Source: a virus (taxonomy: Duplodnaviria > Caudoviricetes). From it: DNA of 64,000 nt. The notes beneath the pieces were generated by a model. The model saw only the letters and a program-made list of their open reading frames with translations, was not told where the DNA came from and made no database searches. The first letter of the stretch is position 1. Each line of letters opens with the position of its first letter. The stretch lies in the IMG/VR virus record IMGVR_UViG_3300008954_000001; one strand, written 5' to 3'. Made by a program: the position numbers and the translations under genes. Below, in pieces: positions 10,804-48,211 of the stretch.

Positions 10804-11004
10804 ATGATTTACTTAGTGCTCTACACAATGGCTGTTATTTGGGTCGTTGCGGGGCTTCTCTACGCTGACAATTACTTAGTACATAGCAAGACCGAAGTGG
10901 TTTTTGCCCCTCTTTTACTGGTCTTCACCACCTTCCAATTCATTTTGGAGCGTGGATACCGTCTTTATCAACGGGGAACACGATCTTATCTATTCAGCAG
11001 GTAG
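10804..11004 (+). CDS. Small membrane protein
   Basis: GAGGA RBS before ATG 10804; two hydrophobic segments. Confidence 0.55.
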   Translation: MIYLVLYTMAVIWVVAGLLYADNYLVHSKTEVVFAPLLLVFTTFQFILERGYRLYQRGTRSYLFSR

Positions 11005-11006
11005 CC

Positions 11007-11021
11007 GTTGGTTGCCCTATT
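11007..11021 (+). promoter_or_regulatory. Class B element GTT-GGTTG-CCCTATT (putative late promoter)
   Basis: Matches G[AGT]T-N5-CYYTAT consensus; upstream of ORF 11060. Confidence 0.45.
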
Positions 11022-11059
11022 GATCCACTAAAGCAACGGCTGCGGATCAAGGAGGCCCT

Positions 11060-11548
11060 ATGAGCTATTTAATGAACAAAAAGACCCGGTTTCGGCTTGG
11101 GGAGCTTGAAGATGCGGTAGAAGAACTCGCCTTCACACATACAATTTCGGCAGATCACGGGAGCAATCCCGACCAAATCGTGGTGTTTTCCTATAACGCT
11201 TCGGAGTTTCTTGGGGGGACAATGATTGTCTACCTCCGAGATGATGCCACGCCACCCAATACTGGCGTAGCTGAATACCTGTTCGTCAACGATCTTGCCT
11301 CCACACCCAATGCCGAAGCCAGCATAACAAAGGTCGATAAGCGGCATGTTAACGGAACCGCAGACCGAGGCACCACAGATCAACCTCTTAGTAATAACGC
11401 CGAAGCCCACATCGTAGATGGGGTCGTCAATCTGACGGTCGAACCTTCTAATATAGGTGCTCTCACCGCAGGTACGGTGCTGACAGGGGTTGCTTTAGTT
11501 ACCCCCATCCCGAACCTGTGGGAAATGGGCGGAGACCCTGGTGAGTGA
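11060..11548 (+). CDS. Hypothetical beta-rich acidic protein, possibly virion-associated
   Basis: AGGAGG RBS; class B element upstream. Confidence 0.6.
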   Translation: MSYLMNKKTRFRLGELEDAVEELAFTHTISADHGSNPDQIVVFSYNASEFLGGTMIVYLRDDATPPNTGVAEYLFVNDLASTPNAEASITKVDKRHVNGTADRGTTDQPLSNNAEAHIVDGVVNLTVEPSNIGALTAGTVLTGVALVTPIPNLWEMGGDPGE

Positions 11549-11550
11549 CC

Positions 11551-11793
11551 CTACTTGAACACTCGGTCTTTAGCTGTCTCGAACAACTGTGGAAGAAAGC
11601 TCTTTTTGAGGCGTAGAAGTCTCTCGAACTTCACCTTCTTACGAGCATCCACATAGAGTTGTGTAGGCTTCTTAATCTCGCCCTCAATAAGCTGATCCGA
11701 GAAATCATAGAACTTGGTACGCTCAGGGGGCTTCGCATAAGCATTGGTGTGGAAAAAGCTCAGAGCCAAGACCATCAGTAAACCCCTAATCAT
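11551..11793 (-). CDS. CglF/GltF-like small secreted protein (myxobacterial gliding-motility family)
   Basis: Signal peptide followed by YDFSDQLIEGEIKKP...YVDARKKVKFERLLRLKKSFLPQL, matching my recollection of the CglF DF-x-D-x-I-E-G-E-x-x-K-P...F-x-x-L-(I/L) signature. Confidence 0.55.
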   Translation of the reverse strand: MIRGLLMVLALSFFHTNAYAKPPERTKFYDFSDQLIEGEIKKPTQLYVDARKKVKFERLLRLKKSFLPQLFETAKDRVFK

Positions 11794-11962
11794 CGTCTGG
11801 CTCCTCTACCCAAGAGGAAAAGCTCAAACCAAGACCACAACATGCCATGCTGATTAGACCTAAAAGCATTAAGTCCGTATTCCCCATGGCGGTCGCTAAC
11901 CCAAACAGGGCTAAGTTCATGCCCAAAGCACCAACCACAAGATCCCTGAACAAGCGTCTCAT
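11786..11962 (-). CDS. Small two-helix membrane protein (58 aa; not in ORF track)
   Basis: Manual translation MRRLFRDLVVGALGMNLALFGLATAMGNTDLMLLGLISMACCGLGLSFSSWVEEPDDD; fills the gap between coupled neighbours. Confidence 0.55.
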   Translation of the reverse strand: MRRLFRDLVVGALGMNLALFGLATAMGNTDLMLLGLISMACCGLGLSFSSWVEEPDDD

Positions 11963-11965
11963 GGC

Positions 11966-12301
11966 TCAACCCTCTTTGTTCATGGCTTCCATCAACTTGA
12001 TAGCCATGAGCCACTGAAGCATCTTTTGAAGGTCCATTTCAGGGGACTCTTCAGTAGGCGTAGCGGCTTGGGTTCTAAGAGAGCACCAATCTTGGGTGGA
12101 CATTTGCGGGCCGTAAGCACCGCTTGAAAAATCGGCGGCCCCCATTTCGGCGGCCTTCGTGTCCCCACCCGAAGATGACGACCCCGTGTTTACAGCAGGG
12201 GTAGCTTCCGCACCCCCAACAGCGGCGGCTCCTGAACCAGCACTAACTGATCCGCCAGCGTTAGCTGCGCCTCCCGCTCCTCCAACTCCTCCAACATTCA
12301 T
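11966..12301 (-). CDS. Gly/Ala-rich low-complexity protein with amphipathic C-terminal helix
   Basis: ORF with AGAAGG RBS; C-terminus MDLQKMLQWLMAIKLMEAM. Confidence 0.55.
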   Translation of the reverse strand: MNVGGVGGAGGAANAGGSVSAGSGAAAVGGAEATPAVNTGSSSSGGDTKAAEMGAADFSSGAYGPQMSTQDWCSLRTQAATPTEESPEMDLQKMLQWLMAIKLMEAMNKEG

Positions 12302-12310
12302 AACCTTCTC

Positions 12311-12505
12311 TCACTTTGGTTTGTTCCATGGCTTTTTGCCCCAAGCGATGAGAAGTGCTTTACAAAGAGTCAAAACGATTCGATTGTGGTTGTGGAAGAT
12401 ATTCAACTGCTGTCTACCCGACAGCGACAACCATTCTCTTACTTGTTCTTCCGAAAGAGTTTCTGGGTCCCAGTTTGGTTCTTCAGATTTCTTTCGATAG
12501 GACAC
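12311..12505 (-). CDS. Hypothetical protein (likely GTG start at 12505; ORF track extends to 12598)
   Basis: AAGGTGAGG RBS before GTG. Confidence 0.45.
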   Translation of the reverse strand: MSYRKKSEEPNWDPETLSEEQVREWLSLSGRQQLNIFHNHNRIVLTLCKALLIAWGKKPWNKPK

Positions 12506-14763
12506 GACCTCACCTTTGGAAAACCCACATCGTTGGGATGAATACATTGTTGTGTAGGTAGGTGCAGCCACATTTCTTGTGTTTGGTGTGTACCGCACTG
12601 CGTTGGTTTATGTTTCAGTTTTGAGAGAGATTGAAACTGAAACACTCCAAAAGCAGCGGGAGAGAACCGCATAGTTCTATGAATAGGTAACAATAGGGGA
12701 TCAATCGAATAACTGTCCCATAACCAAGCCCCTTGCTGGGCATCTTCGCCACCACAAGCGGTTTCTTCAAGGATATCCATAAGGTTGTCGAACATCACTT
12801 GTGGGTTCGCAGTAAGCTGAAACCAAGACCCGCCAACGGAAACAGGCTCCCACCCAAGAGGGCCAATTTGCCCCCCACCACCCGATTTGCTGAAAGTGTA
12901 GATGGATAAATCATCCGCAGCGGCGGCCCACTCTTGGATAAGGGGTTGTGTTGTCATGGGGTTAAGAAAACTTTGGCCGTGTTCATCAGAGAAGATAATT
13001 ACGACGTGGTGAACATCCTCTCGCCAATTGATATGCCAGTTATCAATGCTGGGATCAGACCCCACTCCGAAGCCCCCCCAATTCAGTGGGGGTAGTGCGG
13101 GCACATCTCCAGGCTCAACCAGATTTCTAATGCTCAAAAGCAAAGCATCGTAAAGCATCTCGCTGCTCGTGGGTTCATCATCTACCGTCGCCAAATGCCC
13201 CAAGAACTGATTGAAGGGAACGAGATTGGTAGCCAAATGAAGAGTGTCATCGAAGTTTTGATCGATTGGCCCAACCACCAAACCCCATTGGACAACTTCT
13301 TGATCCGCATAATGGGTTGAAAACATACCCATCGCTTGCTGAACAGCATTGATTGTAGAGGACATGGAGCCAGAGGTGTCCACGATGAAGAGGACATCGG
13401 TGTCTTCTAAGACATTTTCAATGACTCCATCACAGTTGTCATCCTGACCTGTGCATAAGTCTTCTTCCAGCGGCGTAACTTCTCCCAGACACATGTCTTC
13501 AACGAAAAACTCGTCTACAAAGTTGCCCCACTGACCACTTACGCACAACATATCCCCAGGAGCGCAAACCCCAACATTCACGGTTCCTTCTGGCCCTGTG
13601 TAGCATTGGGCCATCAAATCCTCATCGATCAGTTCGTCGCAATCGTCATCAAAGTTGTTGCAAATCTCCTCCACAGGAGTCCCGCCTGTTGGGTCACACA
13701 CTTCGTTTGGTTCGGGCAACCAATGGCACATAGCAAAACATTGTGTCATTTGAGTTGTTACACAGTTTTCATCGGCGCACTCGCAGGACTTGAACCCTTG
13801 TCCACAAAGGAGCGGGTCTTCCATGCACGGGATCAAGAACCCGATCATTTCGGGCGGGCAAGCACAATCCAGCCCATCATCGATCAGCCCATTACAGTCG
13901 TCATCTAATCCGTTGCACTCTTCGGGCATCGGGGGCTGTGCGGTGCATCCTGTCCAAGCTCCCTCAATGCAAAATTCAACCCCTTGCTCACAGTCGGTTT
14001 CACACCCTTGAAGCAACTCTTCGTCTGTCAATGCGTCACAGTCGTTATCGAGGCCGTCACAAACCTCTGGGACGGGTAGAGGGGCATCGCAAAGGACTAA
14101 CTCGCCTTCGATGCAAAGAGCGTTTCCTGGCCCACACTCGGACTCACAGGGGTACTCCCCTTCGTCCACGACTCCATCGCAATCGTTATCTATCGCATCA
14201 CAGATTTCGACCTCACACGGAACACAAGGGCCAGCCATGATCTGCCCCTTCTCGCAGGTGAAGTCTTGAAGTCCTGTATATTCCTCCCCGTTCTCATCTA
14301 TGTCCGTGCAAGGGACATCTTCATTGACGATGATATCTGGGTTGGTGGGATCACACTCAAGCCAATTTTCACACTCTCCCATACTGACCACTTGCCATTG
14401 GCAGTCGGGGTCGTTGGCGAAAGCGGGGGTACAAGGCTCTCCGTTGGCATCGCAGACATCTAAAACCAAGGCTTGCATATAGAGGGCGGGATCGTCTCCG
14501 GGAGGGTGGCCGTCAGGGGTGCAAAAGAACATTTGGGTTTTCCAGCACTGCTGCTGGTATTCATATTCTTCCCCACAATGACAAGGTACGCCGCAGCATC
14601 CCGAATCCGCTTCCTCATCGGGGGTATCCGCATCTATGAAGGGAATGTCGGCATCTGAAGGGGTGGATATTCCCCGTTCAGGCACATCGGCTTCGTTCCC
14701 GCTTCTGTTTTCCGTACACCCGAAAACGGCCAATACCGCCAACAACCACAATGTTTTCTTCAC
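12439..14763 (-). CDS. Lipoprotein with Cys/Asp-rich CDxxDNDCDG repeats and a vWA domain
   Basis: Lipobox-like AVFGC; repeated CDAIDNDCDG/CDGLDNDCD/CNGLDDDCNG/CNNFDDDCD; vWA strand DVLFIVDTSGSMS with intact MIDAS DxSxS. Confidence 0.75.
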   Translation of the reverse strand: MKKTLWLLAVLAVFGCTENRSGNEADVPERGISTPSDADIPFIDADTPDEEADSGCCGVPCHCGEEYEYQQQCWKTQMFFCTPDGHPPGDDPALYMQALVLDVCDANGEPCTPAFANDPDCQWQVVSMGECENWLECDPTNPDIIVNEDVPCTDIDENGEEYTGLQDFTCEKGQIMAGPCVPCEVEICDAIDNDCDGVVDEGEYPCESECGPGNALCIEGELVLCDAPLPVPEVCDGLDNDCDALTDEELLQGCETDCEQGVEFCIEGAWTGCTAQPPMPEECNGLDDDCNGLIDDGLDCACPPEMIGFLIPCMEDPLLCGQGFKSCECADENCVTTQMTQCFAMCHWLPEPNEVCDPTGGTPVEEICNNFDDDCDELIDEDLMAQCYTGPEGTVNVGVCAPGDMLCVSGQWGNFVDEFFVEDMCLGEVTPLEEDLCTGQDDNCDGVIENVLEDTDVLFIVDTSGSMSSTINAVQQAMGMFSTHYADQEVVQWGLVVGPIDQNFDDTLHLATNLVPFNQFLGHLATVDDEPTSSEMLYDALLLSIRNLVEPGDVPALPPLNWGGFGVGSDPSIDNWHINWREDVHHVVIIFSDEHGQSFLNPMTTQPLIQEWAAAADDLSIYTFSKSGGGGQIGPLGWEPVSVGGSWFQLTANPQVMFDNLMDILEETACGGEDAQQGAWLWDSYSIDPLLLPIHRTMRFSPAAFGVFQFQSLSKLKHKPTQCGTHQTQEMWLHLPTQQCIHPNDVGFPKVRSCPIERNLKNQTGTQKLFRKNK

Positions 14764-14766
14764 AGC

Positions 14767-15078
14767 TTACCCCTTCTTCTTTGCTCCCTTACCCGAAGAT
14801 TTTTTCTGAAAGCCCGACACAAAAACTTGATGTAGCAACACCCCAAAGGTCTGGATGGTCTTGTGCTCCATCTCGGCTTCCGCAAAGTGATTGAGGGCTT
14901 CAATCACCTCATGCCAAAAAGTTTCCCAAGCAAGGGAATCGGAGAGGCTTTTGTCCAAGTAGATCGACATCTTGTCCAGATCCCACATTCCGTAGGCTTC
15001 GGAATGTTCTACAAGGTCTTGTTTCATAACGACCTTTATTTCATGGCCGCCAATTTGAATTTTGCTTGGGATTTCCAT
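14767..15078 (-). CDS. Small phage protein with HExxE (zincin-like) motif
   Basis: ETFWHEVIEAL; YGMWDLDKMSIYL. Confidence 0.55.
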   Translation of the reverse strand: MEIPSKIQIGGHEIKVVMKQDLVEHSEAYGMWDLDKMSIYLDKSLSDSLAWETFWHEVIEALNHFAEAEMEHKTIQTFGVLLHQVFVSGFQKKSSGKGAKKKG

Positions 15079-15080
15079 CT

Positions 15081-15890
15081 CTAATCTGCCTCTTTCTCCT
15101 TTGTAGGAGGACTTTTCATGGCCTTATCTTTGACAGATTCCATGACTGTCCGAATTCCTGCATAGGGGGGAGAAAAAGCGATATTCTCAAATCCGACCAG
15201 AGTGCCACTGGTGACTCCCACTAATTCACCGTTCTCATTAACGATGGGGGAACCAGAGCTACCGCTTTTTGTTGGGATTGTGTAAACGTCGTATGGGATC
15301 GGCACACCGCCCAAATCTGGGTTTGGTGGGGGGTATTCCGAAGTCGTTCCAGCACTCAAACCTTCCAGTATGGGCAGAAGGTCGGAGCCGAAGGTTCCTA
15401 AAGGAGCGGCCATGGCAAAGACTCTTTCGCCTCGCTTAGTGGGCCGTGGTGCCATTTCAAGGATGGCGGGAGGTCGCATACCTCTGATCTTTAGTACGCA
15501 AAGATCCAAACTCGGATAAATGTCTTCAACAGCCGCTTCGTAAGCGACACCGCCAAGAATCATTACTCGAACATAGGAACTGGTTTCGGGTTCAAAGAGT
15601 TCCCCATCAGGCCCTTGTAAGATAACTTTGTTCGGGGCACAGACATGGCCCGCCGTGATCCCCCATGAATCAAAACCATTTGTGGCGGCTATAAAACCAG
15701 AGCCAGAGAAGGAAGCCCGCCCAAGCTCCATGCACTGATCTCCCACACACGTAGAGAATACGACTCTCTTGATTACAAAGAGAAAGCTGTTGTGGGCGAA
15801 CTGAGAGGGGTTCATCCGAGCGGTGCGAGCACAGGATGTGGTTAAAATAAGCAGTAGCATGGTGCTGATTATTACAATTTGCCGTTTCAT
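15081..15890 (-). CDS. Trypsin-like (S1) serine protease, probable lipoprotein
   Basis: TAGHVC, DLC and GSSGSP catalytic motifs; LTTSC lipobox; ATG 15890 overlaps the upstream stop (ATGA). Confidence 0.8.
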   Translation of the reverse strand: MKRQIVIISTMLLLILTTSCARTARMNPSQFAHNSFLFVIKRVVFSTCVGDQCMELGRASFSGSGFIAATNGFDSWGITAGHVCAPNKVILQGPDGELFEPETSSYVRVMILGGVAYEAAVEDIYPSLDLCVLKIRGMRPPAILEMAPRPTKRGERVFAMAAPLGTFGSDLLPILEGLSAGTTSEYPPPNPDLGGVPIPYDVYTIPTKSGSSGSPIVNENGELVGVTSGTLVGFENIAFSPPYAGIRTVMESVKDKAMKSPPTKEKEAD

Positions 15891-17488
15891 TCTTCCCTCA
15901 CAGGGCAAAACATGGTCCCGATAGGACCGTCTTCGAGATCCACTAAAACACCCATCAAACCAGCTTCACTGGTGACGTAGCCTTTGCCCGAATGCCATGC
16001 GTCTGGCGAAGCAAGGGAGGGCAATAGATAGTGTCTAATGCCGCCGATTTCTTGGATGCGTTGATGATGTAGGTGGCCGCCAAAAGCGACGTGGTGCCGA
16101 GCTTTGCCCCAATCGGCCCGCCGTTCTTTTGCCATAATAGGCCCCAGGTCTTTGACCTTGGCCGTATCGCCATGTGTAAAACAAGCTAAGGTAGTGCCAA
16201 TAGACTGATACACACGCATCTGGTGGTTGCGAACCACCTCTACTCGATTGCTGCCCTCATATGCAGCGTGGAGATAAAGTAGGAGTGCGTGAGAGTTAGC
16301 CCGGTCATGGTTACCGGACATGAGCACAACTTTCACGGGAGCAACCTGTGAAAGAATATCGATATGCTCTCGTTGAAGTTCACAACCCGTCAAAAGAATC
16401 TCCAAAGCGGAGCCTTCCGAATCTTGGGGGGTGCCTTTCGTAGTCGCTTTCTCTGGCCCGATCCCATCAATGTGAAAGAAATCTGACCCTACGGCGACCG
16501 TAATACCTTGTGGTTGACCGGGTAATCGAGAGATCAAGTCTTCCGTACTTTGCATCAATCGTTTTCGGGCAATGGTTCGATTGTAATCGTGACCACTCTC
16601 TCCCGCCCATGAGTACATGCCCCAATGAAAATCTGTGGCTGAAGTGACTAACCAGTAAGGCTTATCCGCCCGATGGAGCTTCAACTTCGGGACCGTGTAC
16701 TCGGTGTGGAAATCTCCAACCCAACCTCGAATACGATTGAGAACTGTGGCCTCAAAATCCCACCAGCTTCGAGCGGCGGAGGCAGTCTCTCTGGCACCAA
16801 GCTCTTCCGTCTTGGTCGCCAAGGCTCCAAACTTTAGAGCTAAAGCGTCTTGCGCCAGTTCATCAACACCACGCTTTGCTACCTCTTCGGCTGAAAAGGG
16901 GGCTGAATCATGTGTGATCCCATGTGACTTAAGGTAGCCGACAACCCAGTTTCGAGGGAGGCCCGTGCGACGAGAGATCCCGTTCAGCGAAACAGGTTGT
17001 CCATCCCAATTTGAATACCAACGAAGAATAGAGCGATGGGCTTCACCAGATGTGGTTACCCATCCCTTTGCCTGTTGGATATATGTTTTGTAGGAGTCGC
17101 CCGCTTCGTCAAAGACATAGAGATTGTGCTCTACATCTATTGGCTCAAAGGCAAGGTCATCCGAGTTAGAGGCTTCTACCTCTAAGTCATCCTCTTCTAA
17201 TGTGTTATCGGACGAGGCTTGTAGGGCCTCGAAAAACCGGATCGTTGTTAAACGGTTCGGTTTGGTTGTTGGAGGGTTTGTATTTGGACCGCCCTCCTGC
17301 TTCACTCGTTTGATGCACAGGTCAACGTCCCATCGTTTCGGTTCGCTGCCCTCGGTCAGGGCCACTAACTGTATTAGGCCAGTACGACCTAATGGTACAG
17401 TGGCAACCTGATCTCCGTACTTCTCCCAGAGTAGGTCGGATCTTTCGCTCAAAGTAAAACCCCCATCCCGTAGCTTCGGGGTAGCCAA
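15887..17488 (-). CDS. Calcineurin-like metallophosphoesterase with N-terminal extension/HTH
   Basis: TDFHWG, GSDFFH, GNHD, HGD and GHLH motifs; TTG start uncertain. Confidence 0.75.
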   Translation of the reverse strand: MATPKLRDGGFTLSERSDLLWEKYGDQVATVPLGRTGLIQLVALTEGSEPKRWDVDLCIKRVKQEGGPNTNPPTTKPNRLTTIRFFEALQASSDNTLEEDDLEVEASNSDDLAFEPIDVEHNLYVFDEAGDSYKTYIQQAKGWVTTSGEAHRSILRWYSNWDGQPVSLNGISRRTGLPRNWVVGYLKSHGITHDSAPFSAEEVAKRGVDELAQDALALKFGALATKTEELGARETASAARSWWDFEATVLNRIRGWVGDFHTEYTVPKLKLHRADKPYWLVTSATDFHWGMYSWAGESGHDYNRTIARKRLMQSTEDLISRLPGQPQGITVAVGSDFFHIDGIGPEKATTKGTPQDSEGSALEILLTGCELQREHIDILSQVAPVKVVLMSGNHDRANSHALLLYLHAAYEGSNRVEVVRNHQMRVYQSIGTTLACFTHGDTAKVKDLGPIMAKERRADWGKARHHVAFGGHLHHQRIQEIGGIRHYLLPSLASPDAWHSGKGYVTSEAGLMGVLVDLEDGPIGTMFCPVREE

Positions 17489-17516
17489 ACTTGGTTATTC
17501 TCTGTGCTTGCTTTAG

Positions 17517-17572
17517 TTTGGCCGCCCAAAAAGGGGGGAGATGTTCATTTGGCCGCCCAAGGGGGGGAGATG
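17517..17572 (+). repeat. Imperfect tandem repeat TTTGGCCGCCCAA(A)nG6-7AGATG x2
   Basis: Copies at 17517-17543 and 17548-17572. Confidence 0.6.
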
Positions 17573-17602
17573 ACATGAAGCCACCGTTCATACACAGGGG
17601 AG

Positions 17603-17617
17603 CATAAAGGCCCTATC
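17603..17617 (-). promoter_or_regulatory. Class B element GAT-AGGGC-CTTTATG
   Basis: Consensus match; heads the minus-strand 17488-11551 gene run. Confidence 0.5.
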
Positions 17618-17668
17618 GAAACGAGGGTGGGGGCAGTACCCCCCAATCAACCCCCCTAAAGACTATCG

Positions 17669-17695
17669 GGGGGCTGATTTGTTATCGAAACGGTA
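17669..17695 (+). promoter_or_regulatory. Class A element, copy 5
   Basis: GGGGG-CTGAT-N12-CGGTA followed by AACT; divergent from the class B element at 17603. Confidence 0.6.
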
Positions 17696-17759
17696 AACTG
17701 GATAGTCCTCGAATTTGAGGATGGATAGCTCTTTGAAAAGGAGAAAAGGAGAAGATGGA

Positions 17760-18104
17760 ATGGAAAATAACCAGCAATTTTGGGAACTTTGGGGCAACTC
17801 AGAGGGCCAACGCTACTACAACTGCTCGAAATACAAGCGGATAGAAGGCTATACAGGAAACTCTTTGCATCGGTTTATTTTTGAGGATGAGGAAGGCATG
17901 AGGCTAAACGCTTGCTTTGAAGCGTATAAAACAAGCACTTCAGATGCTCCCATTATGGGGCTACGAATGCTTTCTCTAATCCGAGAAGATACGGGTGAGG
18001 CCGTAAAGGTTGCCCCCACTTTGCAACAGTCCTTGTTTGGATTGGCTTTGGCCGCTGTTGCAGAACAGGACAAAGAGATTTTGGAAAACCTACCTGCTTG
18101 GTGA
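17760..18104 (+). CDS. Hypothetical protein
   Basis: AGGAG RBS before in-frame ATG 17760. Confidence 0.65.
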   Translation: MENNQQFWELWGNSEGQRYYNCSKYKRIEGYTGNSLHRFIFEDEEGMRLNACFEAYKTSTSDAPIMGLRMLSLIREDTGEAVKVAPTLQQSLFGLALAAVAEQDKEILENLPAW

Positions 18105-27391: not shown

Positions 27392-27790
27392 CTACTTCAA
27401 ACCTTGTGTAATCATACCCTTAGCGACAGAGACCAAAACCCCGCCAAACATATCTCCAACGATAGCCATAAAGTCTTTGAACTTAGACTTCTTCTCCGCC
27501 TCTACTTGATGGCAGTGTTCCATAACATCCGCTTGGAGACGTAAAGACAGCTTGGCGAACTCTGTGTTGTCGATAGGCTTACCTTCGATCAAGCCCCAAA
27601 CCAGTTCTTCGGCCTTTTTAATGCCAGCAACACCATAGTTATCAATGGTTTCGCCCAATACACCCAAGATAGTCGCTTGCCAATCTTCTTTGACTTCAAC
27701 CTTCGACATGGCTTTCGTGATCTCGTCCACAGCCTTTTGAGCACCGACAGAAACGATTTCACCTATATCTTCTTTTTTTGAGTCAGACAT
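27392..27790 (-). CDS. Hypothetical helical protein
   Basis: ORF coupled to 27790; GGAG RBS. Confidence 0.65.
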   Translation of the reverse strand: MSDSKKEDIGEIVSVGAQKAVDEITKAMSKVEVKEDWQATILGVLGETIDNYGVAGIKKAEELVWGLIEGKPIDNTEFAKLSLRLQADVMEHCHQVEAEKKSKFKDFMAIVGDMFGGVLVSVAKGMITQGLK

Positions 27791-28152
27791 TAGTCGCTCC
27801 CTTCAGCAAATCGGTCACACATCTCTTCCAAAGATGGGATCTTGGGTGCCTCGCCCTCAGGTTTCGGCTCACCTTTATTCAGATGCCGCCGCCATTGCAT
27901 GTGTCGCTCCCAACGAGCGGAGTGGACAGCCAGAACTTCAGCGGCTGAAGCGCAAAGCTCTGTGGTCCATTGTCGGTTTTCATCGCAAGCACAGTGGTTT
28001 TCTACCATGAGAGTAGTAACTCTCTGGTATTCCATCACAAAGGTATTCACGAAAATGTCTTCTTTATCGACTGTATCGGTCAATCGAACGCTTCGGGTAG
28101 CACAACTCGAAGCCATTACTGCGAGCAGAACTACGGCAAATAGTTTCTTCAT
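27790..28152 (-). CDS. Lipoprotein (MKKLFAVVLLAVMASSC)
   Basis: Signal peptide II/lipobox; GGAG RBS before ATG 28152. Confidence 0.65.
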   Translation of the reverse strand: MKKLFAVVLLAVMASSCATRSVRLTDTVDKEDIFVNTFVMEYQRVTTLMVENHCACDENRQWTTELCASAAEVLAVHSARWERHMQWRRHLNKGEPKPEGEAPKIPSLEEMCDRFAEGSD

Positions 28153-28220
28153 CGAAAATTCTCCCAAGGGCGATTGTTAAGGCACGTTACCCTTTAGGTC
28201 ACAATACCCCGTTAGTGATT

Positions 28221-46466: not shown

Positions 46467-47492
46467 CTAAACGAAAACGCCATTGAATTGCTGAGTGCAT
46501 CGCACGAAAGTCGTGCATTTGCTCAACTGTTTGAGCGTGGGGGCACCTACATAGGTACAGGTAGAACGGACTCCGCCGAGAATGTTTTTTATAGTGTCAT
46601 CTACGGACCCTCGAAAAGGAACCTCAACGAGCCGCCCCTCTGAGGATCGGTAGTCAGCTATCCCTCCATGGTGTTTGTCCATGGCGGCATCTGAACTCAT
46701 ACCGTAGAACTGAACATTGGATTCACCGTTCTTCTCAACCACGGTGCCGCCCCCTTCTGTGTGGCCAGCAAACATGCCACCGAGCATGACGAAATCAGCC
46801 CCCGCAGCGAAGGCTTTGGCTACATCTCCTGGGCAGGTACACCCGCCATCGGCAATAACGTGGCCCCCAAGCCCGTGAGCGGCATCCGCACACTCGATCA
46901 CGGCACTAAGCTGTGGATACCCCACCCCCGTCTGAATACGGGTTGTACAGACCGATCCTGGGCCAATACCGACCTTTACGATGTCGGCCCCGCTCATAAT
47001 CAGTTCTTGGGTCATGTCGGCTGTTACGACATTTCCAGCAATAATAGTGACATGGGGACATTTCTCTCGAACCTGTCGCACGAAATCAACGAAATGTTCG
47101 GAATACCCGTTCGCAATATCGATACAGACAAACCGAAGGCATTGTCGGGTAAGGAGCTTTTCAGTCTTTTCCCAGTCAGCCCTTCCTGTTCCTGTACTGA
47201 TGGCGATCCTGTCGGGATCAACCATCTCCGCATAAAGATCCCAATCCCGATGACCGTAATGCTTCGCTATACAGGTGAACAGGCCCCGTTCCGCTAAGGC
47301 GTGGTGCATGTTGAATGTACCCACCCCATCCATATTGGCGGCCATGATCGGGATACCGCTCCATGATTTCTGGCTGTGCTTAAATGTGTAGGTCCGAAAT
47401 AGATCCACCTCTTTTCGAGAGCGAAGAGTGCTCCGCTTAGGGCGGATCAGGACATCTTTGTAGTCGAGCTTGAGGTCGCTTTCGATTCGCAT
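46467..47492 (-). CDS. guaC: GMP reductase
   Basis: [81 protein letters not shown]; likely ATG at 47492. Confidence 0.95.
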
Positions 47493-47584: not shown

Positions 47585-48211
47585 TTAAGCAGCCGCTTCG
47601 TCTGCTGTGGTGTCTTTCTTCTTCAAGACATGCTTGAACATCGATTCCCACAATGCGATTGCACTCGCACCTGACAGGAAGGCGGTGTACAGGGCTTCGC
47701 CCCAATGCACTGAGCCAAAAGCGAGGGAAGTTCCAAGAGAACTCACACAAGCCAAGCCCATCGTAACCCAAGGCACGGCGTTCTTAGGTAGAAATCCAAG
47801 AAGAGAGAAGGTCTTCGATCCAAAAGAGATGTTGAAGCGGCCAACCCATACGAAAAGCATGATGATCAAGCCAGCCAGAACGCCTTTGCCTTCTGCCGAA
47901 CCCTTATGCTTCCCGTCTTGGACATGGTTGAAAATCTGTTGAACCAGATTGAACCCTTCAGCGATCTCAAATTCACCCTCCTTAGGGGCATCTGCTGTTG
48001 GAGCCGTAGTTCCCTCAACGACCGCCTTGACGACTTCTTCGGTGGCTTCCTTCGCCTCCTTTGCGTCTGCCTCTTCACCAGAGGCTTTATCGGCATCATT
48101 GGCCACATCCGTAAGGGAGGGGCGTTCGCCGGGTACTGGCTCTTGTGCCATTGTGGGATTTGCGAAACATGCGAGAGCTACCACCAAGGCAGCGTGTTTT
48201 AGGAATTTCAT
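47585..48211 (-). CDS. Signal peptide + acidic linker + multi-TM membrane protein (holin-like C-half)
   Basis: N-terminal signal peptide; three to four hydrophobic helices. Confidence 0.55.
   Translation of the reverse strand: MKFLKHAALVVALACFANPTMAQEPVPGERPSLTDVANDADKASGEEADAKEAKEATEEVVKAVVEGTTAPTADAPKEGEFEIAEGFNLVQQIFNHVQDGKHKGSAEGKGVLAGLIIMLFVWVGRFNISFGSKTFSLLGFLPKNAVPWVTMGLACVSSLGTSLAFGSVHWGEALYTAFLSGASAIALWESMFKHVLKKKDTTADEAAA

What the first reader, a model, noticed from the sequence alone, without database searches (positions are those of the whole stretch)
11551..15890. Co-transcribed envelope-remodelling cassette: protease lipoprotein, zincin-like protein, vWA lipoprotein, membrane peptide and CglF-like protein
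Seen: seven contiguous minus-strand genes with gaps of 0-10 nt or overlaps, downstream of one class B element, including an intact trypsin-like lipoprotein. Inference: a phage system that edits the host surface or motility machinery, for example by shedding or replacing adhesins or receptors to block superinfection, or by steering infected cells in a swarm. I am not aware of a described phage module of this kind.
Basis: inference. Interest (0 to 1): 0.7.

Follow-up and report, generated by a model that had tools for sequence, protein, structure and literature searches.

The report
Phage-borne gliding-machine part plus lipoproteins
A giant marine phage that probably infects myxobacteria carries its own copy of GltF, a small connector of the host's gliding-motility machine, beside genes for an integrin-like surface lipoprotein and a lipid-anchored protease, so it may tamper with how infected cells move or stick, though no effect has been tested.

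Summary
The gene array is real. Seven minus-strand ORFs (11551-15890) are separated by 2-9 nt or overlap. The same tight array also takes in the upstream exonuclease-like gene (4-nt ATGA overlap), and co-transcription is untested.

The strongest result concerns the 80-aa "CglF-like" gene. It is a true GltF/CglF homolog (NCBIfam E 5e-11) and is 45-77% identical to GltF genes in gltC-D-E-F clusters of uncultured Myxococcota. Its consensus cannot be told apart from the cellular one. It is predicted to dock into GltC (ipSAE 0.88, best control 0.00).

The 774-aa lipoprotein belongs to a phage-specific family (437 IMG/VR stretches). It has a lipid anchor, a Cys/Asp-rich stalk and an integrin-beta-like vWA head. 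That layout resembles CglD, but it is not a CglD or CglB family member. The protease is an HtrA-like S1 lipoprotein without a PDZ domain.

The "zincin-like" protein is cytoplasmic, has HExxE rather than HExxH, and travels with the exonuclease gene.

In relatives, vWA, protease (18/24 long records) and GltF (12/24) share genomes but are usually scattered. Only close relatives keep the cassette.

First-stage notes flagged GltF-like genes in two other phage genomes.

The parts
17489..17714 (.). Divergent intergenic region. It is the only non-coding DNA upstream of the array. It holds a tandem ~31-nt motif (17517-17576, minus strand) just before the exonuclease start, and a + strand GGGGGCTRATTT element (17669-17680) that faces the divergent genes.
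15887..17488 (-). 533-aa metallophosphoesterase, an SbcD/Mre11-like 'DNA repair exonuclease'. It is the first gene of the tight array, and its stop overlaps the protease start (ATGA).
   Evidence: phrog_704 E 6e-55 and Metallophos_2. Overlap read. It is the most conserved upstream neighbour of the vWA gene and is 36% identical to the 413-aa protein of L179.
15081..15890 (-). 269-aa lipoprotein serine protease. It has an HtrA-like S1C protease domain and no PDZ domain.
   Evidence: Trypsin_2 E 3e-15. HtrA2/HtrA1/MarP-like chains in PDB, E 1e-8. The H82/D129/S212 triad and lipobox-type N-termini are conserved in 21-23 of 23 phage homologs.
14767..15078 (-). 103-aa cytoplasmic mini-zincin-fold protein with an invariant HEVxE...H...H pattern (not HExxH).
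   Evidence: phrog_1233 E 2e-11. Atlas structure neighbours are ImmA/IrrE- and SprT-like, TM 0.74-0.85. Family alignment. It lies next to exonuclease homologs in L008, L178 and L179 and is absent from L001.
12439..14763 (-). 774-aa lipoprotein. The parts in order are: lipobox (VFGC), a disordered tether (17-60), a Cys/Asp-rich beta-hairpin stalk (~61-445; 47 Cys, 24% D+E, four C[DN]xxD[DN]DC[DN] motifs), an integrin-beta-like vWA head with an invariant DxSxS (450-672), and a disordered tail. The last ~29 aa extend beyond where homologs stop and overlap the next gene.
12311..12505 (-). ~64-aa conserved small protein with no export signal and unknown function. The start is placed by homology at GTG 12505 and overlaps the vWA ORF tail by 67 nt.
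   Evidence: Homologs in 8 loci. L001 has a called 63-aa gene 10 nt after its vWA stop.
11966..12301 (-). 111-aa protein with a Gly/Ala/Ser-rich disordered N-half, a conserved QMSTQDF motif and a C-terminal amphipathic helix. No signal peptide, unknown function.
   Evidence: Homologs in 7 loci, twice directly upstream of GltF. No family match.
11786..11962 (-). 58-aa peptide with two transmembrane segments. It overlaps the GltF start by 8 nt.
   Evidence: Homologs in 4 loci. None in the 80 Myxococcota glt loci.
11551..11793 (-). 80-aa GltF/CglF homolog with a Sec signal peptide (cleavage after AYA) and a 55-aa mature region.
   Evidence: NF033764 E 4.6e-11, positions 34-85 of 88. 45-77% identity to GltF of Myxococcota MAGs, which lie in gltC-D-E-F clusters. 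Consensus identical to the cellular one. Predicted docking to GltC.

Best explanation
The window belongs to a jumbo phage known only from marine metagenomes. Its host is most likely an aquatic member of the Myxococcota.

The stretch is a lineage-specific juxtaposition of accessory genes whose products go to the host envelope. They sit inside an early/middle operon that begins with an SbcD-like exonuclease gene.

The one component with a clear reading is a host-derived GltF. After Sec export, its conserved strand (about residues 27-44) and C-terminal helix (about 58-80) should plug into the host Glt (or Nfs-type) trans-envelope machine exactly as the host's own GltF does. GltF bridges GltC of the outer-membrane platform to GltG and GltD.

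I lean about 55:45 to the reading that the phage supplies a working, probably short-lived connector. This would keep or take over the machine while host gene expression fails, like cyanophage psbA. The alternative is that an excess of this two-sided linker jams the machine.

The 774-aa lipoprotein is a phage-specific adhesin-like protein: lipid anchor, tether, Cys-rich calcium-type stalk and MIDAS vWA head. It is probably placed in or on the outer membrane. The lipid-anchored S1 protease probably trims or sheds envelope proteins or processes the adhesin.

Shown: homology, export signals, fold, distribution, predicted GltC docking. Inferred: host, localisation, any joint action, direction of the effect.

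The 103-aa HExxE protein most likely belongs with the exonuclease, not with the envelope set.
For: Phage identity:
- Replication genes surround the stretch.
- The source is an IMG/VR virus record, 36% complete.
- An identical cassette sits on contigs of 282-324 kb.

GltF:
- The NCBIfam CglF model matches at E 4.6e-11.
- 109 stretches in GTDB genomes encode relatives. Nearly all are Myxococcota MAGs, with 45-77% identity among the 80 kept.
- These cellular genes follow GltC-like (2e-57), GltD-like and GltE-like (4e-27) genes. One of them scores 37.7 bits on the same model, against 42.6 for the phage copy. A GltC homolog lies upstream in 49 loci.
- In a tree, phage copies are scattered among cellular ones, and starred branches force at least 3 switches.
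- Phage and cellular consensus sequences agree at every highly conserved position across residues 25-80.
- Complex model of phage GltF 21-80 with a Myxococcota GltC: ipSAE 0.88 in three runs, best of 3 controls 0.00. That mark was reached by 58 of 80 solved complexes and 2 of 110 mismatched pairs (roughly applicable, since my own alignments were used). Runs share at least 82% of contacts and the partner's pLDDT is at least 65. Contacts are GltF 27-36 and 58-80 against GltC 219-404, including invariant R333, E364 and W367. This is the mode published for M. xanthus, with the C-terminal helix in the GltC crevice (PMC11761067).
- GltF is needed for gliding and for GltD clusters (PMC3169522).

vWA lipoprotein:
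- The lipobox is conserved across 24 homologs.
- The vWA model has pLDDT 92. Its best PDB matches are integrin beta I-like domains and adhesin vWA domains.
- The full-length model gives tether, stalk, head and tail.
- 437 IMG/VR stretches encode relatives.

Protease.

Linkage:
- Six of the seven genes are kept in order in L001/L002 at 35-59% identity.
- Elsewhere the protease or GltF lies 1-3 genes from the vWA gene, on either side of it.
- The protease is in 18 of 24 long vWA-bearing records and GltF in 12 of 24.
Against: - There are no expression data, and no experiment exists on any member.
- The host is inferred, not shown. The phage has about 51% GC, while the GltF-bearing MAG loci have a median of 64% (range 48-72%).
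- The GltF score is below the NCBIfam equivalog cut-off (42.6 against 90).
- The GltC used for docking is a stand-in from a MAG, not the true host's.
- The MAG clusters could be Nfs-like (sporulation) or some other Glt-type machine rather than a gliding motor. A DEAH helicase gene follows gltF there, not gltG.
- In most relatives the three genes are scattered over tens of kb. Protease presence does not track GltF presence (10 of 12 records with GltF, 8 of 12 without).
- The vWA protein has no NCBIfam CglD or CglB match. Its vWA domain gave only MIDAS-stretch matches in 301 Myxococcota genomes, apart from one.
- The most conserved neighbour of the vWA gene is an exonuclease gene, which suggests inherited synteny rather than function.
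Confidence: 0.5

Rival explanations
1. Superinfection exclusion or receptor masking is the selected function. The phage uses a Glt-associated surface structure or another outer-membrane protein as its receptor. After infection, excess GltF uncouples the outer-membrane platform from the motor. The vWA lipoprotein binds and masks the receptor, as T5 Llp does with FhuA. The protease sheds exposed adhesins or receptors, so later phages cannot adsorb and progeny are not lost on infected cells or debris.
For: - Two lipoproteins and a periplasmic protein are made from a non-structural region.
- MIDAS vWA domains are protein-binding modules.
- In M. xanthus, CglB is shed by proteolysis when the Glt outer-membrane platform is disturbed (PMC9946355).
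- A two-sided linker in excess can separate its two partners. GltF contacts GltC and GltG in the published model (PMC11761067).
- From my own knowledge: phages that use type IV pili encode inhibitors of pilus function, such as Tip and Aqs1.
Against: - No receptor is known.
- Phage GltF shows no phage-specific changes that would mark an inhibitor.
- The three genes are not linked in most relatives.
- CglB shedding in M. xanthus was EDTA-sensitive, which points to a metalloprotease rather than a serine protease (PMC9946355).
Confidence: 0.2
2. There is no joint function. The genes are independent accessory genes (morons) that have piled up in a variable slot next to the exonuclease gene. Each acts alone or is nearly neutral. 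The cassette look comes from the compact packing of phage genomes.
For: - Gene content around the vWA gene differs from locus to locus.
- GltF and the protease are often more than 10 kb from the vWA gene.
- The 103-aa gene is present in the window and L008 but absent in L001.
- Protease presence does not depend on GltF presence.
- Exonuclease, 103-aa and MopE-vWA genes are kept in order even in an unrelated small phage contig, which points to inherited order.
Against: - GltF or the protease turns up immediately beside the vWA gene in several different arrangements, upstream in some lineages and downstream in others. Pure drift would seldom recreate that.
- All three are under strong purifying selection, and all three products go to the same compartment.
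Confidence: 0.25
3. The exported proteins serve lysis or egress. The protease and the lipoprotein loosen the outer membrane, slime or matrix at the end of infection, and GltF is incidental.
For: Spanins and some lysis accessory proteins are lipoproteins (my own knowledge). The protease is envelope-targeted.
Against: - No holin, endolysin or spanin-like genes lie in the array.
- The array sits among replication and nucleotide-metabolism genes.
- A 774-aa Cys-rich vWA protein does not resemble any known lysis factor.
Confidence: 0.05

Closest known systems
GltF (= CglF) of the Myxococcus xanthus Agl-Glt gliding machinery (NCBIfam NF033764; PMC3169522, PMC11761067, bioRxiv 10.1101/2023.10.19.562135)
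   Same: It is a small Sec-exported protein. The whole conserved mature region aligns (model positions 34-85 of 88), and the consensus matches that of cellular GltF. It is predicted to put its C-terminal helix into the GltC TPR crevice.
   Different: It is encoded by a phage, outside any glt cluster. It scores below the equivalog cut-off, as do cluster-embedded GltF genes of aquatic Myxococcota. Its role in motility is untested.
CglD, and more loosely CglB: cell-surface vWA lipoprotein adhesins of the M. xanthus gliding apparatus (bioRxiv 10.1101/2023.10.19.562135; PMC9946355)
   Same: It is a lipoprotein. It has an N-terminal acidic region with DxDxD-type, calcium-style repeats and many cysteines, then a MIDAS vWA domain whose best structural matches are integrin beta I-like domains.
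   Different: There is no sequence match to the NCBIfam CglD model. It is shorter (774 aa against 1130 aa). Its repeats are MopE-type Cys-flanked motifs rather than COMP/TSP3 repeats. The family is essentially phage-specific. Surface exposure and contact with Glt are unknown.
HtrA/DegP/MarP-type S1C serine proteases
   Same: It has the chymotrypsin fold, an intact His-Asp-Ser triad and an envelope location.
   Different: It has no PDZ domain, is anchored by a lipobox, and has about 250-290 aa.
Host-derived auxiliary genes for fast-turnover machine parts, such as cyanophage psbA (my own knowledge, not tested here)
   Same: The phage copy is under host-like sequence constraint and appears to have been exchanged with hosts several times.
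   Different: The product is a structural connector of an envelope motor, not a metabolic or photosynthetic protein. Turnover of GltF is unknown.
Phage proteins that shut down a surface motility organelle or mask a receptor: Tip and Aqs1 against type IV pili, T5 Llp, lambdoid Cor (my own knowledge, not tested here)
   Same: These are phage-encoded envelope-directed proteins, made during infection, that act on host surface machinery.
   Different: Those are phage inventions that inhibit. Here the key protein is a faithful copy of a host component. No exclusion phenotype is known.
ImmA/IrrE- and SprT-like mini-zincins of phages (for the 103-aa protein)
   Same: Size and predicted fold agree (Atlas TM 0.74-0.85).
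   Different: The family has an invariant HExxE in place of HExxH. It is cytoplasmic and its neighbour is an SbcD-like exonuclease gene.

Membership tests
GltF/CglF (NF033764) | Match to the curated model above its equivalog cut-off (90 bits) | tested here: not met
   42.6 bits, E 4.6e-11, positions 34-85 of 88. A GltF embedded in the gltC-D-E-F cluster of a Myxococcota MAG scores only 37.7 bits, so the cut-off is tuned to Myxococcus-like sequences.
GltF/CglF (NF033764) | Small exported protein with an N-terminal Sec signal peptide | tested here: met
   Read from the sequence: a hydrophobic N-terminus ending in AYA, then the mature peptide. No signal-peptide predictor was available.
GltF/CglF (NF033764) | Encoded in a glt cluster, after gltE | tested here: not met
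   The phage gene lies in a phage operon, and no other glt gene is in the 152-kb record. Its cellular homologs do meet this feature.
GltF/CglF (NF033764) | C-terminal helix binds the GltC crevice | tested here: met
   Prediction only. ipSAE 0.88, best control 0.00. The mark was reached by 58 of 80 solved complexes and 2 of 110 mismatched pairs. At least 82% of contacts are shared and the partner's pLDDT is at least 65. The GltC is a stand-in from a MAG.
GltF/CglF (NF033764) | Strand pairs with the TonB-C domain of GltG; required for gliding | not tested
   The strand region (FYDF...GE..KP) is fully conserved.
CglD (NF033765) / CglB gliding adhesins | Sequence match to the family model | tested here: not met
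   No NCBIfam hit at E <= 0.1 for the 774-aa protein. The library does hold a CglD model.
CglD (NF033765) / CglB gliding adhesins | Outer-membrane lipoprotein with a MIDAS vWA domain and Cys-rich or calcium-type repeats | tested here: met
   Lipobox conserved in homologs. Invariant DxSxS and a vWA fold with pLDDT 92. 47 Cys and four DxDxD-type motifs in the N-half. MopE motif E 2.6e-7.
CglD (NF033765) / CglB gliding adhesins | Surface exposure and association with the Glt outer-membrane platform | not testable with these tools
   Needs fractionation, protease accessibility and co-purification.
HtrA/DegP family | S1C protease domain with a His-Asp-Ser triad | tested here: met
HtrA/DegP family | One or two C-terminal PDZ domains | tested here: not met
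   The protein has 269 aa and no PDZ match. File it only as a Trypsin_2-type S1 protease.
Zincin metallopeptidases (ImmA/IrrE, SprT-like) | HExxH zinc-binding motif | tested here: not met
   HEVxE is invariant in 12 homologs, with further invariant His at positions 12, 72 and 83. Only the fold is alike.

The most novel reading that the evidence does not exclude
Jumbo phages of aquatic Myxococcota rewire the host's focal-adhesion gliding machine during infection. They supply their own fully host-like GltF connector, which they have repeatedly swapped with hosts. Together with it they deploy a phage-specific integrin-like lipoprotein adhesin and a lipid-anchored protease. The infected cell's adhesion and movement then serve the phage, for example by holding the cell on a particle or prey patch, or by changing what it sticks to. 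This would be a viral module for behavioural control built around a bacterial focal-adhesion complex.
Probability: 0.25. Interest if true: 0.85.

Novelty: new variant of a known kind. Interest (0 to 1): 0.62.

Why it matters
Phages are known to carry host-derived auxiliary genes and envelope-directed morons. I found no phage in GenBank (INPHARED) and no paper in the searched library with a structural component of the Agl-Glt gliding or focal-adhesion machine.

A host-like GltF in about half of a large, uncultured group of marine phages does three things:
- It gives a concrete host assignment to that group.
- It suggests that Glt-type machines matter during infection of planktonic or particle-attached Myxococcota.
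- It offers a small, easily expressed probe of GltC-GltF-GltG coupling that can be tested directly in M. xanthus.

The MopE-vWA lipoprotein family (hundreds of viral contigs, function unknown) is a second target. It is an integrin-like adhesin architecture that seems to have been kept by viruses.

Tried and rejected
- DNA search of 11000-18000 against GenBank phages found no match. tblastn of the vWA and GltF proteins against the same collection found no match.
- A scan of viral contigs with the single vWA protein found nothing. An alignment was needed.
- The promoter and terminator scan gave counts at or below chance.
- The 'class B element' could not be identified. Repeat and pattern searches gave only a + strand element and a local tandem motif.
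- The vWA domain as a single sequence found nothing in five Myxococcota genomes. As a profile it gave only MIDAS-stretch hits in 110 of 301 genomes, plus one real homolog.
- The 64-aa, 111-aa and 58-aa proteins have no Pfam, NCBIfam, PHROG or PADLOC match. They have no homolog in the 80 Myxococcota glt loci. The Atlas search for the 111-aa protein gave nothing at 0.9 or above.
- PADLOC gave no defence-system match apart from generic protease similarity.
- ORFs from the 80 cellular glt loci were searched against the phage record. Only GltF matched, apart from two weak repeat or protease hits.
- I considered that the vWA tail and the 64-aa ORF might be joined by a frameshift. I rejected this because relatives have a separate 63-aa gene right after the vWA stop.
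Full report
**What the DNA is.** The window is part of a single 152.5-kb IMG/VR virus record rated 36% complete. Around the finding lie two topoisomerase IB-like genes, a UvrD helicase, a deoxynucleoside kinase, DnaB-like and other helicases, a primase and a family A DNA polymerase. The proteins of the cassette occur letter for letter on metagenome contigs of 282 and 324 kb. The phage is therefore a jumbo phage and the record is a fragment. No GenBank phage resembles the region at DNA or protein level.

**The observation.** Seven minus-strand ORFs fill 11551-15890, and their junctions are +2, +3, -67, +9, +3 and -8 nt. The fourth gene is easy to miss. The 774-aa ORF runs about 29 codons beyond the point where its homologs stop. 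It thereby overlaps a ~64-aa ORF (12311-12505), whose homolog in a related 258-kb contig is a separately called 63-aa gene starting 10 nt after the vWA stop. All seven ORFs have protein-level relatives in divergent contigs, so they are real genes.

Two parts of the observation do not hold as written.
- The protease ATG overlaps the stop codon of the upstream 533-aa SbcD/Mre11-like phosphoesterase gene (ATGA; phrog_704 E 6e-55). The tight array therefore begins at 17488.
- The only repeated element I could find in the upstream intergenic region (GGGGGCTRATTT at 17669-17680; six copies in the window against 0.8 expected) is on the + strand and faces the divergent genes.

Co-transcription is inferred from spacing alone. 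No RNA run was listed, and the promoter and terminator scan was at chance.

**The GltF homolog.** The 80-aa product has a Sec-type signal peptide and a 55-aa mature part. It matches the NCBIfam model 'adventurous gliding motility protein CglF' at E 4.6e-11 over model positions 34-85 of 88, below the equivalog cut-off. CglF is GltF (bioRxiv 10.1101/2023.10.19.562135).

- A scan of one genome per GTDB species found 109 stretches encoding relatives. The 80 kept are 45-77% identical, and nearly all come from Myxococcota MAGs, many on contigs of hundreds of kb.
- In those genomes the gene follows GltC-like (E 2e-57), large TPR GltD-like and GltE-like (E 4e-27) genes. One such cellular GltF scores 37.7 bits on the same model, less than the phage copy. 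A GltC homolog lies upstream in 49 of the loci. The cellular relatives are thus cluster-embedded GltF genes, and the phage protein is as good a GltF as they are.
- ORFs from these 80 loci matched nothing else in the phage record except two weak hits.
- In a maximum-likelihood tree the 15 phage sequences are scattered among 93 cellular ones, and well-supported branches force at least three switches. The alignment is short, so details are unsafe.
- Column by column, phage and cellular consensus agree at every highly conserved position across residues 25-80. I see no sign of an inhibitor-type variant.

**Predicted docking.** I modelled phage GltF (residues 21-80, alignment A2) with GltC of the MAG whose GltF is closest to the phage's (alignment A4).
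- The score was 0.88 in three runs, and the best of three controls was 0.00. That mark was reached by 58 of 80 solved complexes and 2 of 110 mismatched pairs. These counts hold only roughly because my own alignments were used.
- Runs share at least 82% of contacts, and the partner's pLDDT is at least 65.
- The contacts are GltF 27-36 and 58-80 against GltC 219-404. They include residues that are invariant in 32 GltC sequences: R333, E364 and W367.

This is the arrangement proposed from AlphaFold models for M. xanthus. There the GltF C-terminal helix sits in a GltC crevice and a GltF strand pairs with the GltG TonB-C domain, so that GltF bridges the outer-membrane platform to GltD and GltG (PMC11761067). 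I know of no solved structure of this pair, so the pass is unlikely to come from memory. It is still a prediction with a stand-in partner.

**The vWA lipoprotein.** The 774-aa protein starts with a lipobox that is conserved in all aligned homologs.
- The full-length model gives a disordered tether (17-60), a run of small beta-hairpin modules (about 61-445, pLDDT 70-89), a vWA domain (450-672) and a disordered tail.
- The stalk holds 47 of the 52 cysteines. It is 24% Asp+Glu and 1% Lys+Arg, and it carries four Cys-flanked DxDxD-type motifs (Pfam MopE motif E 2.6e-7).
- Folded alone, the vWA domain has pLDDT 92. Its best PDB matches are integrin beta I-like domains and adhesin vWA domains such as LapA and PTMP1 (Foldseek E about 1e-7, TM 0.5-0.6). 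DxSxS is invariant.
- The layout (lipoprotein, calcium-type repeats, Cys-rich part, beta-integrin-like vWA) is that described for the gliding adhesin CglD (bioRxiv 10.1101/2023.10.19.562135). CglB is also a Cys-rich vWA lipoprotein (PMC9946355). But the protein matches no NCBIfam model, and that library does contain CglD.
- A profile of the vWA domain found only short MIDAS-stretch matches in 110 of 301 Myxococcota genomes, plus one true homolog with the same architecture next to dapD.
- The nearest ESM Atlas clusters are all viral. 437 IMG/VR stretches encode relatives, and the best 80 all span the vWA domain.

It is a phage family that works like an adhesin of the CglD/CglB kind. It is not a member of either family.

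**The protease.** It is an S1C, HtrA-like protease domain without PDZ (Trypsin_2 E 3e-15; HtrA2, HtrA1 and MarP-like chains E about 1e-8). Triad and lipobox-type N-termini are conserved in the phage homologs.

**The 103-aa protein.** It has a mini-zincin fold by Atlas structure neighbours (ImmA/IrrE, SprT-like; TM 0.74-0.85). Its family has an invariant HEVxE, not HExxH, and no signal peptide. Its steady neighbour is the exonuclease gene. The order exonuclease, 103-aa gene, MopE-vWA lipoprotein recurs on a 34-kb contig of a quite different phage. There the exonuclease is 36% identical (E 9e-82) and a 388-aa lipoprotein has MopE repeats and DxSxS (E 8e-25). Another contig has the exonuclease and the 103-aa gene without the vWA gene. 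I therefore place this gene with the exonuclease, not with the envelope set.

**Do the genes travel together?**
- In the closest divergent relative (L001/L002, 258 kb) the order is exonuclease, protease, vWA, 63-aa, 106-aa, 56-aa, GltF. This order is kept at 35-59% identity, without the 103-aa gene.
- Among 85 loci with up to 10 kb of flank, the protease lies within reach in 22 and GltF in 14-15. Positions differ: the protease is directly upstream or 1-2 genes downstream or 6-10 kb away on the other strand, and GltF is 1-3 genes upstream or downstream.
- In 24 long vWA-bearing virus records, the protease is present in 18 (6 of the 7 that are at least 90% complete) and GltF in 12 (4 of 7). Both are often tens of kb from the vWA gene. 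The protease is found in 10 of 12 records with GltF and 8 of 12 without.

The three genes are common members of one phage group's accessory set and are repeatedly found side by side. The seven-gene cassette itself is specific to this lineage.

**Mechanism.** What is shown: homology and host-like constraint of GltF, export signals, folds, distribution, and a predicted GltC interface. What is inferred: the host (Myxococcota, from GltF phylogeny, MopE-type repeats and one cellular homolog), the location of the lipoproteins, and any joint action.

My best reading is that the phage plugs its own GltF into the host's Glt-type trans-envelope machine. I lean slightly to supply of a working connector, because the copy is complete and cannot be told from host copies. 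It also seems to track host lineages. Jamming by an excess of a two-sided linker fits the same facts.

The adhesin-like lipoprotein and the protease would change the infected cell's surface. Whether the gain is exclusion of other phages, altered adhesion or something else is open. The MAG clusters might be Nfs-like or serve a function other than gliding.

**Other checks and earlier notes.** There were no defence-system matches. The three small proteins have no homolog in the cellular glt loci. A recent preprint on myxophage auxiliary genes does not mention Glt components.

Earlier first-stage notes of this scan flagged GltF-like genes in two other phage genomes. Another described merged glt clusters lacking gltG in a cellular genome, which agrees with what I saw.

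Noticed in passing
window 12439-12505: The vWA ORF runs about 29 codons past the point where homologs stop (after the conserved QQCIHPxD motif). It overlaps the start of the next gene by 67 nt. In relatives the two genes are separated by about 10 nt.
   Followed up: partly
L179:4757-7459 (34-kb metagenome contig), also L178: A quite different, smaller phage keeps the order SbcD-like exonuclease (413 aa), HExxE mini-zincin (99 aa) and a 388-aa MopE-vWA lipoprotein. The link between exonuclease and mini-zincin is the most stable one.
   Followed up: partly
window 17517-17576 (minus strand): Two tandem copies of a ~31-nt motif (C-run, then TTGGGCGGCCAAA) lie directly upstream of the exonuclease start. 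They may be an operator or promoter element, and the motif is not repeated elsewhere in the window in full.
   Followed up: partly
window 157, 507, 1399, 2336, 17669 (+ strand) and 46792-46803 (- strand): The element GGGGGCTRATTT has six copies against 0.8 expected. The + strand copies lie shortly before + strand genes.
   Followed up: partly
window 27790-28167 (-), window 47585-48211 (-), and G000:C1:35743-36240 (-): These are further candidate exported proteins of the phage: a 125-aa lipobox protein, a 208-aa protein with a signal peptide and a 165-aa lipobox protein. They were found with a simple pattern only.
   Followed up: no
L095:7923-9194, L103:7926-9226, L127 and L135 (Myxococcota MAG loci): Some cellular glt clusters carry two GltF paralogs in tandem. 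In two loci they bracket a ~200-240-aa membrane protein. In L100 and L098 a DEAH-box helicase gene follows gltF, not gltG.
   Followed up: partly
L172:118-1788 (G009:C131): This is the only clear cellular homolog of the phage MopE-vWA protein among 301 Myxococcota genomes. It has 556 aa and lies next to dapD. It may mark the source lineage or a transfer from a phage.
   Followed up: partly
contigs behind L086/L087: The same phage is assembled as contigs of 282 and 324 kb in other samples, so the 152.5-kb record is about half of a jumbo genome.
   Followed up: no
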